A stretch of DNA of 64,000 nucleotides from an uncultured Gammaproteobacteria bacterium. GTDB taxonomy: Bacteria > Pseudomonadota > Gammaproteobacteria > JABDGN01. The position numbers are program-made. Below, piece after piece: positions 54,001 to 63,000 of this stretch. The DNA lies in NCBI GenBank assembly GCA_963975985.1, contig CAXBIY010000001.1, forward strand, positions 307,870 through 371,869. The letters run 5' to 3'. Every line of letters begins with the position of its first letter. Position 1 is the first letter of the stretch.

Positions 54001-57000
54001 GCTACACCTAAGATAGGAATCATCGGTCTGAAGAACATGTCAACGCATGCTAAGAACTTTTGTAAGCCTGTCATTGGCATATTCGGTGGGAATTGAACCG
54101 CAGAAACTGTTAAAATACCAACAATTAGGGCGATAAGAATAGCCACGATGACATAAACTTTATTTGCTTTATTACAATCCATTACTAGTCTCCTGTGTGT
54201 GTTAAGTAACTTGACGATTGTACGATATTGAATAAGAATTGCAACTAAACCAAAGGGATAGTATGAAAAAATTAGTATTAGGCACGCGAAATGCGGGAAA
54301 ACTGCGAGAATTTAAACAACTGTTTGAGCCAGTGAGCATTGAAATCTTGCCCATAGGGGATTTCACCGGTGAAGATGTCGAAGAAACCGGTTTAACCTTT
54401 GTCGAAAACGCTATCATTAAAGCACGATACGCCTGTGACGTGAGTGGCATGCCTGCCTTGGCGGATGATTCCGGTTTAGTTATCGATGCTTTAAACGGCG
54501 CACCAGGTATCTATTCTGCACGTTATGCCGGTGAGCATCATGATAGCGATGCCAATATCGCAAAAATTTTACAAGAGTTAAAAGATGTTTCTGATGATCA
54601 ACGCACAGCAAGATTTCATTGTTGCTTGGTGTATATGCGCCACGCGAAAGATCCCACCCCCATTATTTGCGAAGCCCAATGTGAAGGTCTTGTCGCTCGT
54701 GAACTTAAAGGTGAAAATGGTTTCGGCTATGACCCCATGATGTACTTACCCGAGTTCGGTTGTATGTCAGCTGAGCTGTCACCTGAACAAAAAAATAAAA
54801 TAAGCCATCGGGGTAAAGCCATGCAGATGATGTTGGCTAAGCTTTTATGATGTAAAAGCATGGGGGCTTAAACTTACTTAATCACTCCACACGCAATACG
54901 TGCACCGCCGCCGCCGAGTGGTTTGGGTTTGTCGGAGTAATTATCGCCACCGGCGTGGATCATTAAGGCGTGGCCTTCGATATCTTTCACCGTTAATCGT
55001 GGGGCTAATAGCGGATGAGTGGCGTCACCTTTGTTATCAACAGGTAGCACAGGCAAGTCACCTAAATGCCCAGTACCATAAGGCCCTAAATGTTTATCGG
55101 TTTTTGCAGGGTCAAGATGGCCATGAGCATCCATCGCATGGTCACCGCAGTTGGGTGTTGTGTGAACATGAAAGCCATGCACACCAGCCGGTAAACCGTG
55201 TAAGTTGGGTGTGAGCAATAAGCCATGCGGAGTATCTTTTGCCACCACGTTACCGATCGATTTTCCTTGGCCATGATCAACCGCCGTATACATGGGAATA
55301 GTCACACTGGCAGCAAAAACAGACGTCGATAATAATAACAATACACTAGCAAGATAACATTGGATACGCATAGGGATTCTCCATGAGCTTGTTCTGTTTA
55401 GCATAGAAGAATTTAACCTAGAGTCAAACTAGGGCAAATACCAAACAAATATTGTGAATAAACTAACCATATTTGCAAAACTCTAAATCTCGACTATCTT
55501 AACCGGAGTTCTATCACGCGCAAATTCAGGGGCCATCATGCATCAACACAAAATCAAACGTTTAGTCACATCAACTTGGGCGGCATTAATGATATCGCCA
55601 ATGGCGGCATTTGCTGCGGATGCTGAAGTGAATCAAAACTTTAATGAGTTAAACAGCACAATCGAACGTTTAGATTCTGAAGTGGGTGAGTTGCGTAAGA
55701 AAGCAGGCTATAAAGGTTCGCTTCAAAACTTAGTGCCCCATTACGATGGTTATGTTTCTCTTGGTGGTGCCTACGGTAATGACCAAAATTCTTCTGGCGG
55801 AGCGGACGTGTTCCAACCGGTTTGGCAACAACGTGATGCTTTAGCTTTTGTCGACTTGCGGGGTTATGACGGTGAATCATCAGTTTATGGCGGCAGTTTA
55901 GGTTTTGGTTATCGACAAATGGTATGGGATGAGAGTTGGTTGTTTGGTGGCTATAGCTATTTCGATACTTATAATAGTAAAAACAATAACAATTTTAACC
56001 AAATCACCTTCGGTGGTGAAGCGAAAACCGTTGATTGGTCTGTGCTCGCGAATGGTTACATTCCTGTCGGTTCAACGGATAGACGTGTTAACGGTAACGA
56101 CATTGTTCAGCGTAACGCATTGGCTAATAATCAATTCAGTATTGATTATGCCGGCGGTTATGAACGTTCTATGTATGGTTTTAACACGGAAGTTGGGTAT
56201 CGCGTGATTGATCAATTACGTGTTTATGCCGGTGGTTTTTATTTCACAAATACTAACACTGCTGCTTTAGTTGGCCCAACTGGCCGTGTCGAATATCAAT
56301 GGGACAACCCATTGCAAGCCAAAGGTATTTTAAAAGAAATTTTTAATCGCTTAACGTTTGAAACCTCCGTGCAATATGACGGCCAACGCGGTACTGATTG
56401 GTATGCAGGCATGCGCTTACGCGTCGGCTTAGGTGAAGCTAATTCACCGCAAAGTGGCTTGGCGCGCCATATGACGGATCGCGTGCAACGCATACAAGGC
56501 GTGACGGTCGGTGATAAAGATTACGAAGAATTAGCTCGCGCGACCAATGCCGATGGCACCACTAAAACCTTTAGTGTCGTTAACAACGCGGCCGAATTGA
56601 ATGCCCAGCTAGCTGCCGGCGGTGCTGATGTGGTGAGTGTGGATGGTGATATTTTAAATATCAATAATAACCTCGTATTGCAAGATGGTCAAACGTTAAC
56701 AAGTGGTACTTATGATTATAAAGGTTATGATATTAATTTAGGTAGTGGTGGTACAGTTGGTGTCGCAGATACTTTGTATACCGAACAAAACCTTGGTTTT
56801 ATTCGTGTTGGAAAAAATAATACCATTCAAAATTTAACGATTGTGACGAGCACAGATTCAACGGCGATCAGCAATGTTGGTGGTGCTAGCGTCGGTAATC
56901 TAACGATTAATGGCGTCATAACGCAAAGCAAAGGCAGCACCGCTGGTGGTGGTATCAACCTCATGGTTAGTGATGGCAGCACCGATTCGAATATCACGAT

Positions 57001-60000: not shown

Positions 60001-63000
60001 TGTGACAGCCATTAGCAATAATACCTTAACTGCCACCAGTATCGGTTCAAGCGTTAATAACTTATTTTTAGAGTCTCGCGATTTTGATGTGAGCAATACG
60101 AATAATAATTCGTTGACAGTGCATGCAGTCACCACAAATACATTTGCTTCAAGAACGGCTAACATCAATGATTATGATGTGTGGCTAAATAGTCGAGTGG
60201 TGAACAATGGCGGTACTAGCCCATTAATTATTGGCGGGACAAAAGAAGGTGAGGGTTTTTATGGCAACAACTTTACCGGCACTAACCCGACTAATGTGTT
60301 ATTCGAATCCGATTTTACCGATGCCGCTATCACGATGTACGTGAACGATGGTAAGAGCACCATTGGCGAAGCCAATAACGGTGCTGTCTATAGATTCTCC
60401 GGCAATGGTGGCACCATTACGATACATCCGACGCCGTGATCGACTAAAACAGATAAAAAAGTAAAATAATTGAACGGTTATGAGGGGGGATACAGCTATA
60501 AGATGGTTTTAGTCAGCCAACGGCCTATCCTCATCTCCTCATCCTGCAACAACGCCGGCTTGACCGTGCGATTCAGAATAGCGCGTTCTCAGAATACGTT
60601 CCTGGATTGTGCGGTCAAGCCGCACAATGACGGCGTAAAAATGTTAACTTATGTTGTTATAGAAAGTACAAACCTGTGACGTTGGCATGCCCTGTGTTGC
60701 TGGCCAATGACAGGTTGCGCCATTGCCGCTGCGTGACCACGTCGGGGTGTTTGGTGACGTTATTGCCAAGGAGCCTGTTAGGCTCATAAATTGTGTGCCA
60801 CTTTGAGTAACCTCATAATAACAAGTGAGATGCCGCTGCCCATGGATGTTCCAAGTTGCTCCAACAAACTTAGGTGTGCCACCAACTGTTTGTTGAGGTT
60901 TCAAGAATTGCCATACACTTGTTCCATGATAGTTCCAACTGCCACTGCTAAAACTAATAGTACTGGGTTCTGGGCATTGGTTGCCAAGCGTGGTGATGGG
61001 TATCGGTTTGCTTGGGAGTGGTTTAATAATTGGTCTTATAGGTGTCCAATGAGGATGGCCTGGTTCAACTGGCGTCCAGCGTGGATTAACCGGTGTCCAA
61101 TGAGGATGGCCTGGTCCAATCGGGGTTGGAAGTGGATCATGCCCTGGAGCGATTGGTGTCCATCTATGCGTAGCCGGATTTAAAGGATGCCACGGAACAA
61201 TAGTAGCAAAGCTTGTGCCACTGACGAGAATTAAGCTGAGTAATACTAATTTTAGTGTTTGTTTCATTGATTGTTTTCCTTATTATCTATTATTAAGCGA
61301 AGTAAACGGTTAAGCCCGTGTCTGCGCCTATTATCATTTGTTTGCCGATGAAAGTATTGCCATCCACAAACCACGCTAAGTGATGTACAAAACGGTATTC
61401 AAAACCTACGCTACCCGCAAAGCCGATACCGCCAATAGAGGTTTTAATATTAGGTTCGTTTTGTTGAGGGAAGTTGCCAAATGTCGCTAATGAGTTATAC
61501 GTATTCTCACTCATGCTATAGCCAACCCCCGCTTTACCGACGAAAAATAGTTGATCGACCACATGCACATCCGCCACACCCATTAATTCGCCCAAGAACG
61601 TTTGGTTTTTTTGAGAGCCGGAATAACTTGCAGGTTCACCTTGGATCATTAGGCTTTGTGATGCTGTGCTATTTATACCTGAGTACGCAGCAAGGTCCGC
61701 TTCGATACCCCATACCGGCGTAAACATATAACCTAAATTCAATCGACCACCTAATGCACCAGCACCTGCAGTTGACGGATTGGTGTTACCTTCTTGATCG
61801 GTATTCAAATTCTTGATGGCTGCATCACCAATGTGAGCATAGTCGGCTGCTAAGCCAAAATAAAAACCTTTGTCTTTAATAACATGAGGTTCATAAGGCA
61901 GTGTATCAGCGTGAGCTAATGTGCAGCTTAAACCCAGCGCGATGGCTGAAAGCGTGAGAGTGAGTTTCTTCATTGTTGATGTCCTTTTCATTTCCATTTC
62001 ATTCTTGTATTAACGAATCTGCGGTTATTGTATCGTTCAAATATTAACAGATTATTAAATTAGTGAAAAAAGTAAAAATATTGGACATGATGTTGATATT
62101 TAATCAGTTTTTTGTATATTGGAGAAGAGGTGTATTCCTTTAAGGGAATATTTTGGGCGGTGATAAGCCACGAATTCGTTTTAGGTAGGTCGAATTCGTG
62201 TGTTATCTATTGAGGTAGGTTTATTTAGGACGCGTCATTTCTTCAGGTTTCACGGCTGCATCAAATTCTTCTGCAGTTAAGTAGCCTAATGAGACGGCTT
62301 CTTCTTTCAGAGTCGTACCATTTATATGGGCATCGTGAGCGAGTTTGGCTGATTTGTCGTAACCGATGACGGGGCTGAGTGCGGTGACGAGCATTAATGA
62401 ATCGTGTAAGTAGTGATCGATTTTCGCTTCATTGGCAGTTAAGCCTTCGACACAAAATTCGGTGAAGCTGTGGCATGCGTCAGTGATTAAGTTGGCTGAA
62501 TGCAGCAAGTTAAAAATCATCACCGGTTTGAACACGTTTAATTCGAAGTTACCTTGGCTGCCGGCGAAACCAATAGCAGCATCGTTGCCCATGACTTGTG
62601 CGCACACCATGGTTAGAGCTTCGCATTGCGTAGGGTTCACTTTGCCTGGCATGATAGAAGAGCCGGGTTCGTTTTCAGGTAAGGTTAATTCGCCTAAGCC
62701 GCAACGTGGGCCGGACCCTAACCAACGCACGTCGTTGGCGATTTTCATTAATGAGCAGGCGAGGGTTTTTAATGCGCCGCTGGCCATCACGAGTTCATCG
62801 TGTGAAGCGAGGGCTGCGAATTTGTTGGGGGCGGTGACGAATGGCAAGCCGGTTAAATCGGCAATGTTTTTTGCGACGCGTTTGGCGAATTCAGGGTGTG
62901 TGTTTAAGCCGGTGCCGACAGCGGTTCCGCCTGCGGCTAAGGCATATAAATCAGGTAATGTTGTTTCAACGCGTTTCATGTCGGCATCGAGTTGCGCGAC

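What the first reader, a model, noticed from the sequence alone, without database searches (positions are those of the whole stretch)
55538..60439. Tandem pair of paralogous surface proteins with an N-terminal putative beta-barrel and a C-terminal parallel beta-helix (inverse-autotransporter-like order)
Both proteins (786 and 803 aa) have a signal peptide. A ~280-aa region follows with amphipathic, aromatic-alternating beta-strand segments, and an R-H-M-T-D-R-V-Q-R-I-Q-G-V-T-V linker comes next. A ~450-aa N/T/G-rich region then carries regular N-x-T-I-x-N / I-D-N-N rung motifs typical of pectate-lyase-fold beta-helices, which are adhesin or glycan-binding folds. The barrel halves are highly conserved between paralogues whereas the passengers have diverged. 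That pattern is expected for surface-exposed variable adhesins. Each has its own promoter region and terminator. Barrel-first and passenger-last is the domain order of intimin/invasin-type (type Ve) secretion, not classical autotransporters.
Basis: partly seen in the sequence, partly recalled or inferred. Interest (0 to 1): 0.65.

Follow-up and report, generated by a model that had tools for sequence, protein, structure and literature searches.

The report
Tandem inverse autotransporters with beta-helix passengers
Two neighbouring, related genes of an uncultured marine bacterium encode outer-membrane proteins that most likely push a rod-shaped beta-helix through their own N-terminal barrel onto the cell surface; this design has been noted before from sequence data but never tested in the laboratory.

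Summary

- **The genes.** Window 55538-57898 (P1, 786 aa) and 58145-60439 (P2, 764 aa from its likely ATG, not 803 aa) are tandem paralogues, 70% identical.
- **Architecture.** Each has a Sec signal peptide, a predicted 12-stranded barrel, a helix-plus-strand linker holding the identical RHMTDRVQRIQGVTV, and a ~455-aa right-handed beta-helix with an Asn ladder. The mature proteins have no cysteine.
- **Barrel evidence.** Its best solved-structure matches are intimin (4E1S, TM 0.77, E 1.5e-9) and invasin (4E1T). P2 just passes Pfam IAT_beta. A profile of the barrel finds 28 proteins, all recorded as IAT_beta, some also Beta_helix, and some named "inverse autotransporter" by NCBI.
- **Prior knowledge.** Heinz et al. 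2016 already reported IAT barrels fused to pectin-lyase-fold domains, so this is a new member of a known kind.
- **What is particular.** The long-passenger subfamily is rare: 48 hits among 1.84 billion representatives. A third paralogue lies ~25 kb away.
- **Paralogue divergence.** The passenger changes about three times faster than the barrel (dN 0.25 vs 0.09). Selection is still purifying (dN/dS ~0.13), so there is no sign of diversifying selection.
- **Function.** Adhesion or surface binding is inferred, not shown.

The parts
55473..55500 (+). Candidate promoter of P1: TTGCAA, 16-nt spacer, TATCTT
   Evidence: The same box with the same spacing is conserved upstream of P2. It matches 8/12 of the consensus, below the scan threshold used. 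Inferred from conservation, not shown.
55538..57898 (+). Gene P1, 786 aa: inverse autotransporter with beta-helix passenger
   Evidence: ORF. The exact protein is on Tara scaffold TARA_SAMEA4397489_METAG-scaffold_821 and on a 396.6-kb contig. AF2 model.
55538..55615 (+). P1 signal peptide (aa 1-26; predicted cleavage AFA|AD)
   Evidence: Read from the sequence: K/R n-region, hydrophobic core, A-x-A site.
55616..55741 (+). P1 N-terminal (presumably periplasmic) extension, aa 27-68, with a predicted helix at aa 35-55. P2 lacks 20 of these residues.
   Evidence: pLDDT is only ~50-57. No LysM domain.
55742..56437 (+). P1 12-stranded beta-barrel (aa 69-300)
   Evidence: Twelve strands between aa 72 and 297 in the model, most with pLDDT 80-94. 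Foldseek matches intimin 4E1S and invasin 4E1T at TM 0.75-0.77.
56438..56527 (+). P1 linker (aa 301-330): helix 307-313 and strand 323-329; contains RHMTDRVQRIQGVTV (56465-56509)
   Evidence: R318 is invariant and M312 nearly invariant across 28 relatives. The order of elements matches the intimin alpha-helical turn, linker and exit strand described in PMC13078405.
56528..57895 (+). P1 passenger (aa 331-786): N-terminal cap with helix, then right-handed parallel beta-helix with an Asn ladder; no cysteine
   Evidence: Passenger-only AF2 model has pLDDT 81 and pTM 0.85. All Foldseek matches are right-handed beta-helix proteins, but weak (best E 3.9e-3). Asn ladder. Cys count.
57924..57947 (+). 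Intrinsic terminator after P1 (AAAACCCCGCAATGCCGGGGTTTT followed by a T-rich tail)
58080..58107 (+). Candidate promoter of P2: TTGCAA, 16-nt spacer, TATCTT
   Evidence: It lies inside the 39-codon extension of the GTG reading.
58145..60439 (+). Gene P2, 764 aa from ATG 58145 (the mechanical ORF starts at GTG 58028 and gives 803 aa)
   Evidence: Pfam IAT_beta 23.5 bits against a cutoff of 22.3.
58145..58231 (+). P2 signal peptide (aa 1-29)
58298..58993 (+). P2 beta-barrel (aa 52-283), 85% identical to the P1 barrel
58994..59083 (+). P2 linker, with RHMTDRVQRIQGVTV at 59021-59065
59084..60436 (+). P2 beta-helix passenger (aa 314-764), 67% identical to the P1 passenger
60475..60636 (.). Two strong hairpins between the convergent genes P2 (+) and 60644-61267 (-); possible non-canonical terminator region
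   Evidence: MFE -66.2 kcal/mol, z = -3.87, and none of 200 shuffles folded as well. There is no U tract, and the terminator scan did not call it.

Best explanation
P1 and P2 are tandemly duplicated type Ve (inverse) autotransporters whose passenger is a right-handed parallel beta-helix instead of the usual Ig-like/lectin array.

Proposed mechanism:
1. The N-terminal signal peptide sends the protein through Sec.
2. [quoted passage not shown]
3. The linker (helix 307-313, then the RVQRIQGVTV segment) occupies the barrel lumen and forms the hairpin.
4. The cysteine-free passenger is threaded out N-to-C. Its barrel-proximal cap (aa ~340-490, the best conserved part of the passenger across the family) emerges and folds first and templates the following rungs.
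5. The product is a covalently anchored beta-helical rod on the cell surface.

The rod most likely works as an adhesin or surface-binding protein of an uncultured marine gammaproteobacterium. A third, more distant paralogue on the same scaffold makes this a small family with varied tips.

Shown here: the gene structure, homology of the barrel to IAT_beta, predicted folds, purifying selection and rarity. Inferred: BAM dependence, the hairpin and N-to-C folding (by analogy with intimin), surface exposure and the binding function.

My confidence is about 0.9 for the secretion architecture and about 0.5 for adhesion as the function.
For: - **Model of the barrel and linker.** The AF2 model shows 12 strands, then a helix and a strand, then beta-helix.
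- **Structural matches.** Foldseek against the PDB ranks intimin 4E1S, invasin 4E1T and intimin 5G26 first (E 1.5e-9 to 8.4e-9, target TM 0.75-0.77). The next barrels are at E ~1e-4.
- **Pfam on the window proteins.** P2 is above the IAT_beta gathering score.
- **Profile search.** A profile of the N-terminal domains finds 28 proteins at E down to 1e-46. All are recorded as PF11924, several also as PF13229 or PF07602, and three are named 'inverse autotransporter beta domain-containing protein' by NCBI.
- **Family scans.** 26/28 hit IAT_beta and 6/28 hit Beta_helix. NCBIfam invasin, YchO/YchP and SinH models hit 8-15 of them.
- **PDB sequence search.** The family profile hits invasin at E 3.5e-4 and pectate lyase C at E 2e-3.
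- **Passenger model.** The passenger alone models as a beta-helix with pTM 0.85.
- **Linked domains.** The passenger profile finds only 48 proteins in 1.84 billion. The match usually begins at residue ~280-340, and 35-43 of the 48 carry the barrel columns. This passenger therefore travels with this barrel.
- **Threading.** There is no Cys in either mature protein, as expected for a chain threaded through a narrow pore.
- **Selection.** dN/dS is 0.07-0.13, so both copies are maintained.
- **No obvious catalytic site.** Conserved passenger residues are almost all Asn, Gly or hydrophobic. No well-conserved catalytic-type residues occur beyond residue 490.
- **Precedent.** Heinz et al. 2016 reported the architecture (PMC4943183).
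Against: - P1 itself has no Pfam or NCBIfam hit at E <= 1. P2's hit covers only profile positions 64-158 of 279.
- hhalign of the family against a single intimin sequence gives only 21.6% probability (E 1e-3).
- In that alignment intimin R288, described as completely conserved in inverse autotransporters (PMC13078405), corresponds to a nearly invariant Gln (Q155).
- The last barrel strand does not end in the aromatic residue that ends intimin's (my reading of the sequences).
- Passenger fold matches are weak (E >= 3.9e-3, TM ~0.3). They include as many enzymes as adhesins.
- A conserved DGSxDS motif (D479 in 36/47) could be a metal or active site.
- The model's pLDDT is low in the long loop 186-205 and in segments 328-341 and 749-768.
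- I had no access to model coordinates, so I did not verify that the linker lies inside the lumen.
- There are no expression, localisation or binding data.
Confidence: 0.8

Rival explanations
1. The secretion architecture is the same, but the passenger is a surface-anchored carbohydrate-active enzyme (polysaccharide lyase, glycoside hydrolase or epimerase of the pectate-lyase fold). It would act on algal, host or biofilm polysaccharide rather than serve as an adhesin.
For:
- Foldseek matches include endo-polygalacturonase, the RbmB lyase, tailspike depolymerases and the AlgE4 epimerase.
- Some short relatives hit DUF1565 or NosD-type models.
- A DGSxDS motif is conserved (D479 in 36/47).
- A marine setting makes polysaccharide substrates plausible.
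Against: - All fold matches are weak (TM ~0.3). Adhesins such as PfbA and SRRP rank equally.
- Beyond the proximal cap, conserved positions are Asn, Gly or hydrophobic only. There are no well-conserved acidic, His, Arg or Lys positions beyond the proximal cap (aa ~340-490) of the kind a shared active site needs.
- Neither P1 nor P2 hits any enzyme family in Pfam or NCBIfam.
Confidence: 0.15
2. The proteins are not autotransporters in function. The N-terminal barrel is a porin or membrane anchor, and the beta-helix stays in the periplasm.
For: Surface exposure was not tested. Some generic 12- to 14-stranded porins also appear in the Foldseek list, at E ~1e-4.
Against: - The best matches by five orders of magnitude are the intimin and invasin beta-domains.
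- The post-barrel helix, linker and strand are conserved, with R318 invariant.
- The passenger is cysteine-free.
- Relatives are IAT_beta by Pfam and NCBIfam.
Confidence: 0.03
3. One or both copies are decaying duplicates (pseudogenes in the making) with no current function.
For: Another assembly carries P1 split by a 5-nt deletion into 475-aa and 311-aa ORFs (P0002 and P0032).
Against: - Both copies in the window are full-length.
- dN/dS is 0.12 over the whole gene despite saturated dS, so both have been maintained for a long time.
- Promoter-like and RBS elements are conserved for both.
Confidence: 0.02

Closest known systems
Inverse-autotransporter barrels fused to a 'pectin lyase' (IPR011050) C-terminal domain, noted by Heinz et al. 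2016 (PMC4943183). Examples here are P0005 (Sulfuricurvum MAG) and P0012 (Magnetospirillum MAG), both named 'inverse autotransporter beta domain-containing protein' by NCBI.
   Same: Same order: signal peptide, IAT barrel, conserved linker (consensus ERRMTDPxVRDxDIVS), capped right-handed beta-helix. They are homologous to P1 and P2 over the barrel, linker and proximal cap (E 1e-30 to 1e-46, 33-38% identity).
   Different: - Those proteins are 515-560 aa with a ~260-aa passenger ending in a conserved Cys...Cys-Pro. P1 and P2 have a ~455-aa passenger with more rungs and no cysteine.
- P1 escapes Pfam and NCBIfam detection entirely.
- The long-passenger subfamily is much rarer, with 48 representatives.
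- None of these proteins has been studied experimentally, as far as the searched literature shows.
Intimin (EHEC eae) and invasin (Yersinia), the type Ve prototypes (PDB 4E1S, 4E1T)
   Same: N-terminal 12-stranded barrel, then an alpha-helical turn, a linker and an exit strand, then a C-terminal passenger. Target TM is 0.75-0.77. The GxGxR and GxE barrel motifs align.
   Different: - Only ~16% identity.
- The passenger is a beta-helix, not Big domains plus a lectin.
- There is no LysM periplasmic domain.
- Intimin R288 aligns with Gln.
- The linker is ~3 residues longer by my manual alignment.
Classical type Va autotransporters with beta-helical passengers (pertactin, Ag43, EspP)
   Same: A monomeric 12-stranded barrel exports a covalently linked right-handed beta-helix that has few or no cysteines. 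The barrel-proximal part of the helix is the best conserved, like the Va autochaperone region (established knowledge).
   Different: The domain order is reversed, and therefore so is the direction of threading and folding (N-to-C here). There is no PF03797 barrel. EspP, BrkA and NalP barrels match only at E ~1e-3 with TM ~0.3.
Beta-helix adhesins and depolymerases of the pectate-lyase fold (PfbA 3ZPP, L. reuteri SRRP 5NY0, phage tailspikes 6F7D/5W6P, RbmB 9OZL)
   Same: Right-handed three-stranded rungs with an N-terminal capping helix. These are the top Foldseek matches of the passenger model.
   Different: The matches are weak (E >= 3.9e-3, TM ~0.3, 9-14% identity). No specific family relationship or shared functional site can be claimed.

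Membership tests
Inverse autotransporter (type Ve secretion; Pfam PF11924 IAT_beta) | Sequence match to the IAT_beta profile above the curated cutoff: P2 | tested here: met
   23.5 bits against a gathering score of 22.3, E 4.9e-5. 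The match covers only profile positions 64-158 of 279.
Inverse autotransporter (type Ve secretion; Pfam PF11924 IAT_beta) | Sequence match to the IAT_beta profile above the curated cutoff: P1 | tested here: not met
   No Pfam or NCBIfam hit at E <= 1. Membership of P1 rests on three other lines. Its barrel is 85% identical to P2's. The profile links to PF11924-positive proteins at E down to 1e-46, and 26/28 aligned relatives hit IAT_beta. The fold also matches.
Inverse autotransporter (type Ve secretion; Pfam PF11924 IAT_beta) | N-terminal Sec signal peptide, then the barrel N-terminal to the passenger | tested here: met
   The signal peptides are read from the sequence. Domain order is shown in the model.
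Inverse autotransporter (type Ve secretion; Pfam PF11924 IAT_beta) | 12-stranded beta-barrel superimposable on the intimin/invasin beta-domain | tested here: met
   Twelve strands between aa 72 and 297. Foldseek: 4E1S at E 1.5e-9, TM 0.77, rmsd 3.6; 4E1T at E 2e-9, TM 0.75. This is a predicted model, not a solved structure.
Inverse autotransporter (type Ve secretion; Pfam PF11924 IAT_beta) | Post-barrel alpha-helical turn, a linker traversing the lumen, and a short exit strand pairing with extracellular loops (PMC13078405) | tested here: inconclusive
   Helix 307-313 and strand 323-329 follow strand 12 in the right order, and a short strand at 181-183 lies in the long loop. I had no coordinates to verify that the linker is inside the pore or that the strands pair.
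Inverse autotransporter (type Ve secretion; Pfam PF11924 IAT_beta) | Residues reported as completely conserved in inverse autotransporters: intimin R288 (strand 6) and R434 (linker) | tested here: inconclusive
   hhalign places the nearly invariant Q155 opposite R288. By manual alignment of the linkers, R310 or the invariant R318 could correspond to R434 and R440. Both alignments are of low confidence.
Inverse autotransporter (type Ve secretion; Pfam PF11924 IAT_beta) | Passenger exposed on the cell surface and dependent on BAM | not testable with these tools
   Needs expression, protease shaving or antibody accessibility.
Intimin/invasin proper | Passenger made of Big_1/Big_2 Ig-like domains capped by a C-type-lectin-like domain; LysM in intimin | tested here: not met
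   No Big, Intimin_C or LysM hits. The passenger models as a beta-helix. P1 and P2 are therefore not intimins or invasins, only members of the wider superfamily.
Right-handed parallel beta-helix / pectin-lyase fold (PF13229 Beta_helix, PbH1 repeats) | Profile match to Beta_helix or related models | tested here: not met
   P1 and P2 have no such hit. 6/28 relatives hit PF13229 and 2 hit PF07602. The family profile hits pectate lyase C at E 2e-3.
Right-handed parallel beta-helix / pectin-lyase fold (PF13229 Beta_helix, PbH1 repeats) | Stacked three-strand rungs with an N-terminal capping helix and an Asn ladder | tested here: met
   The passenger model has pTM 0.85, with triplets of strands and a cap helix at 33-41 in passenger numbering. 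Every Foldseek match is a right-handed beta-helix protein. Asn residues are conserved at 33-45-residue spacing.
Polysaccharide lyase / GH28-type enzymes of this fold | Conserved catalytic residues (Ca-binding Asp/Glu plus an Arg/Lys base, or an Asp triad) | tested here: inconclusive
   No conserved charged residues beyond aa 490. A DGSxDS motif is conserved at 479-484. The alignment of repeats among distant members is unreliable.
Classical (type Va) autotransporter | C-terminal PF03797 beta-barrel | tested here: not met
   No Pfam hit. The C-terminus is beta-helix to the end.

The most novel reading that the evidence does not exclude
P1, P2 and about 45 relatives form a distinct, rare clade of type Ve autotransporters. 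In this clade the conserved barrel-proximal beta-helix cap (aa ~340-490, with the GQTLTGG, GKNNTI and DGSxDS motifs) would act as an N-terminal counterpart of the type Va autochaperone. It would nucleate N-to-C vectorial folding that drives secretion, inside a barrel lumen rewired relative to intimin (Gln in place of the 'invariant' R288). If so, nature has built the exact mirror image of a classical beta-helix autotransporter. That would give a direct test of whether folding direction matters for type V secretion.
Probability: 0.3. Interest if true: 0.5.

Novelty: new member of a known kind. Interest (0 to 1): 0.3.

Why it matters
Type Ve secretion has been studied almost only with Ig-domain passengers (intimin, invasin, YeeJ, FdeC). 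Beta-helix passengers are the hallmark of type Va, where they fold C-to-N.

A natural inverse autotransporter carrying a long beta-helix would have to fold it in the opposite direction. It is therefore a useful comparison system for the idea that vectorial folding drives secretion. It could also be a scaffold for surface display.

For this genome, the result annotates two 'hypothetical' genes and a third paralogue nearby as a small family of surface proteins. The organism is an uncultured marine bacterium that also carries a type VI secretion cluster. These proteins are likely relevant to attachment to hosts or particles.

The architecture is not new. It was reported from sequence surveys in 2016, and NCBI already names relatives as inverse autotransporters.

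Tried and rejected
- **Single-protein searches.** The word-index database gave only self, the paralogue, a truncated copy and one 38% relative. Only the three-sequence profile reached the family.
- **PDB sequence search with P2 alone.** No hits.
- **Reference genomes.** The search for related loci in 185,579 species genomes failed with the 28-sequence alignment, which has no conserved stretch. With the three-sequence profile it found no relative. The P1/P2 subfamily is therefore absent from those genomes at the patterns used.
- **Organism identity.** The second genome scan, with the fumarase gene, was meant to name the organism. The best matches were Legionella worsleiensis at 74% and a RIFCSP gammaproteobacterial MAG at 75%, scattered among many phyla at 70-73%. 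This is only weak support for a Legionellales-like gammaproteobacterium. A neighbouring CBU_0585_lpg0581-family gene points the same way.
- **Co-encoded partners.** I tested whether neighbours of relatives are paralogues or ZirS-like substrates. These were L082 upstream, L084 downstream (969 aa) and L086 downstream (601 aa). None is related to the autotransporters or to each other.
- **More copies in the window.** tblastn of P1 against the window found only the two copies.
- **Diversifying selection.** Rejected: no 60-codon window has dN/dS above 0.38, and the passenger averages 0.13.
- **Ice-binding idea.** Thr/Asn-rich strands (TVNVT, TVTVT) suggested it, but the outward-facing positions are not regular across rungs, and I could not check the sample's origin. 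I did not pursue it.

Full report
**What is there**

The + strand carries two long ORFs, 55538-57898 (786 aa, ATG) and 58028-60439 (803 aa from a GTG). They are 70% identical over their whole length. No further copy is in the window.

The 803-aa reading of the second gene is probably too long, for three reasons:
- P1's Met1 aligns with the ATG at 58145.
- The 70 nt upstream of the two ATGs are homologous. They include an identical TTGCAA-N16-TATCTT box (55473-55500 and 58080-58107) and an AGGxG ribosome-binding site.
- The signal peptide begins only at that ATG.

I therefore treat P2 as 764 aa (58145-60439).

A canonical intrinsic terminator follows P1 at 57924-57947. After P2 there are two unusually stable hairpins (z = -3.9) without a U tract, between P2 and the convergent gene at 60644-61267.

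**Anatomy**

Both proteins start with a typical Sec signal peptide ending AFA|AD. The AlphaFold2 model of P1 used a 28-sequence alignment (mean pLDDT 74; most barrel strands 80-94). It shows:
- a low-confidence helix at aa 35-55; P2 lacks 20 residues of this region;
- twelve strands between aa 72 and 297;
- a short helix at 307-313 (LARHMTD) and a strand at 323-329;
- a beta-helix to the C-terminus.

It lies in this post-barrel linker.

The passenger modelled alone has pLDDT 81 and pTM 0.85. It shows an N-terminal cap with a helix followed by triplets of strands. Conserved Asn residues recur at the same corner of successive rungs: P1 N427, N446, N490, N536, N571, N604, N649, N688, N732 and N768.

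The passengers are 48% N+T+G+S and acidic. The mature proteins contain no cysteine; P2's single Cys is in the signal peptide.

**Is the barrel an inverse-autotransporter barrel?**

Several lines of evidence agree:
1. Foldseek of the full model against the PDB ranks intimin 4E1S (E 1.5e-9, target TM 0.77, rmsd 3.6 A), invasin 4E1T (E 2e-9, TM 0.75) and intimin 5G26 first. The next barrels (OmpG, KdgM, OMPLA) are at E ~1e-4, and classical autotransporter barrels at ~1e-3.
2. P2 passes the Pfam IAT_beta gathering score, but narrowly and over a third of the profile. P1 is missed by Pfam and NCBIfam.
3. A profile of the N-terminal domains of P1, P2 and P0003 retrieves 28 proteins (E down to 1e-46). 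All are recorded as PF11924, and some also as PF13229 or PF07602. Those with an NCBI name are called 'inverse autotransporter beta domain-containing protein'.
4. Scanned afresh, 26/28 aligned proteins hit IAT_beta (best 8e-18). 8-15 of them hit the NCBIfam invasin, YchO/YchP or SinH models.
5. The family profile hits invasin 4E1T (E 3.5e-4) among PDB sequences. hhalign against EHEC intimin aligns the core motifs, but with low probability (E 1e-3, 21.6%).

The order of elements after the barrel matches the alpha-helical turn, linker and exit strand described for intimin (PMC13078405). I could not inspect coordinates to confirm that the linker sits in the lumen.

Two possible differences from the prototypes came out of the alignments:
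- Intimin R288, said to be completely conserved in inverse autotransporters, is opposite a nearly invariant Gln (Q155).
- The linker is about three residues longer between the conserved Arg and the aromatic residue of the exit strand. This is a manual alignment.

Both rest on weak alignments.

**The passenger**

Six short relatives hit Pfam Beta_helix.

All Foldseek matches of the passenger model are right-handed beta-helix proteins: phage tailspikes, the adhesins PfbA and SRRP, polygalacturonases, the lyase RbmB and the epimerase AlgE4. They are weak (best E 3.9e-3, TM ~0.3). The fold class is secure, but no specific family or function follows from it.

A profile of the passenger searched against 1.84 billion representative proteins found only 48 at E <= 1e-3. 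In most of them the match begins near residue 280-340 of a 650-1070-aa protein, and 35-43 of the 48 carry the conserved barrel columns. This long passenger therefore occurs essentially only behind this barrel.

Conservation within the passenger is concentrated in the barrel-proximal 150 residues (GQTLTGG, GKNNTI, DGSxDS). Beyond residue 490 the well-conserved positions (at least 60% of sequences) are almost only ladder Asn, Gly and hydrophobic residues; a few Thr/Ser positions reach 40-55%. I read this as a conserved folding nucleus followed by a variable rod. It argues, weakly, against a shared catalytic site.

**Paralogue evolution**

| Region | Amino-acid identity | dN | dN/dS |
|---|---|---|---|
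| Barrel | 85% | 0.088 | 0.07 |
| Linker | 80% | 0.125 | 0.09 |
| Passenger | 67% | 0.247 | 0.13 |

dS is saturated (1.2-2), and no 60-codon window exceeds dN/dS 0.38. So the duplication is old and both copies are maintained. The passenger is less constrained than the barrel, but there is no sign of diversifying selection.

The exact P1 protein occurs on Tara Oceans scaffold TARA_SAMEA4397489_METAG-scaffold_821 and on a 396.6-kb contig. The same scaffold carries a third paralogue about 25 kb beyond P2 and outside the window: P0081, 710 aa, 34% identical to P1 and recorded as PF11924. A related 830-aa protein, P0041, is on other Tara/NCBI contigs.

**Organism and context**

The genes sit among housekeeping genes: djlA, waaA, a Ham1-family gene, sodC and fumC. 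Base composition is like the rest of the window. The first 18 kb of the window is a type VI secretion cluster.

The organism is not among 185,579 reference species at the patterns tried. A neighbouring CBU_0585_lpg0581-family gene suggests a Legionellales-like gammaproteobacterium. So do the fumarase matches to Legionella and a RIFCSP gammaproteobacterium at 74-75%. This is weak evidence.

**How it most likely works**

By homology with intimin and invasin (established knowledge; PMC6555100, PMC13078405), the steps would be:
1. Export through Sec.
2. BAM-dependent insertion of the barrel.
3. Formation of a hairpin by the linker in the pore.
4. N-to-C threading of the unfolded, cysteine-free passenger.
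5. Folding of the barrel-proximal cap on the outside, which then templates the rungs.
6. A beta-helical rod that stays anchored to the cell.

Only the sequence, fold and evolutionary facts are shown here. The steps themselves are inferred. A role in adhesion or surface binding is the most likely function, at about 0.5. A surface-anchored polysaccharide-active enzyme is the main rival, at about 0.15.

**Novelty**

Reviews describe type Ve passengers as Ig-like or lectin-like (PMC6555100). However, Heinz et al. 2016 already reported a defined group of invasin_beta proteins with a C-terminal pectin-lyase-fold domain and compared them with pertactin (PMC4943183). NCBI annotates relatives accordingly. 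I found no experimental study of such a protein.

The pair is therefore a new member of a known, uncharacterised kind. It belongs to a rare long-passenger subfamily that standard profiles partly miss.

Noticed in passing
P0028 / P0082 (WP_032112262.1, Candidatus Paracaedibacter, 1.68-Mb contig); not in the window: A relative with the same IAT barrel and linker (E 1.2e-25 to the profile) carries a different passenger. It has two poly-proline tracts, WH2-like motifs (LRDALLNQIRERRPLTNV), a basic amphipathic stretch and an acidic Trp-containing tail. This layout resembles WCA nucleation-promoting factors, so it may be an actin-polymerising surface protein exported by type Ve in an amoeba endosymbiont. 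A literature search found nothing on it.
   Followed up: partly
L084:8001-10133 (same Tara scaffold, ~25 kb beyond the window end): A third paralogue, P0081 (710 aa, 34% identical to P1, recorded as IAT_beta). It is followed 29 nt later by an unrelated 969-aa ORF with no Pfam match.
   Followed up: partly
window 56926-56940: Another assembly of the same gene has a 5-nt deletion (AAAGG within CAAAGCAAAGGCAGC). It splits P1 into 475-aa and 311-aa ORFs (P0002, P0032). This could be a population variant, incipient pseudogenisation or an assembly error.
   Followed up: partly
window 137-18038: A type VI secretion gene cluster: TssM/IcmF C-terminal part, TagF, TssA, TssC, TssF, TssG, a VgrG with a C-terminal DUF2515 domain, and ClpV. 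The VgrG gene contains the only GC-rich stretch of the window (0.56 at 10-12 kb against ~0.42).
   Followed up: partly
window 60644-61267 (-): A 207-aa protein with a signal peptide and a Pro/His/Trp-rich repeat region (GHPHWTPV / PRWTPVEP), followed by a Cys-containing C-terminal domain. It has no Pfam match and this exact sequence is not in the protein collection.
   Followed up: partly
window 61293-61997 (-): A small outer-membrane beta-barrel protein (Pfam OMP_b-brl, E 2.7e-9) next to the repeat protein. Together with P1 and P2, four consecutive genes encode predicted envelope or secreted proteins.
   Followed up: partly
window 51746-53752 (+): A 668-aa Gln-rich ORF with no Pfam match, between waaA and the Ham1-family gene.
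   Followed up: no
window ~46556-47126 (-) (L001:1019-1589): Two small genes with weak or faint CopG-antitoxin and BrnT-toxin matches lie between the anthranilate synthase genes trpG and trpE.
   Followed up: no
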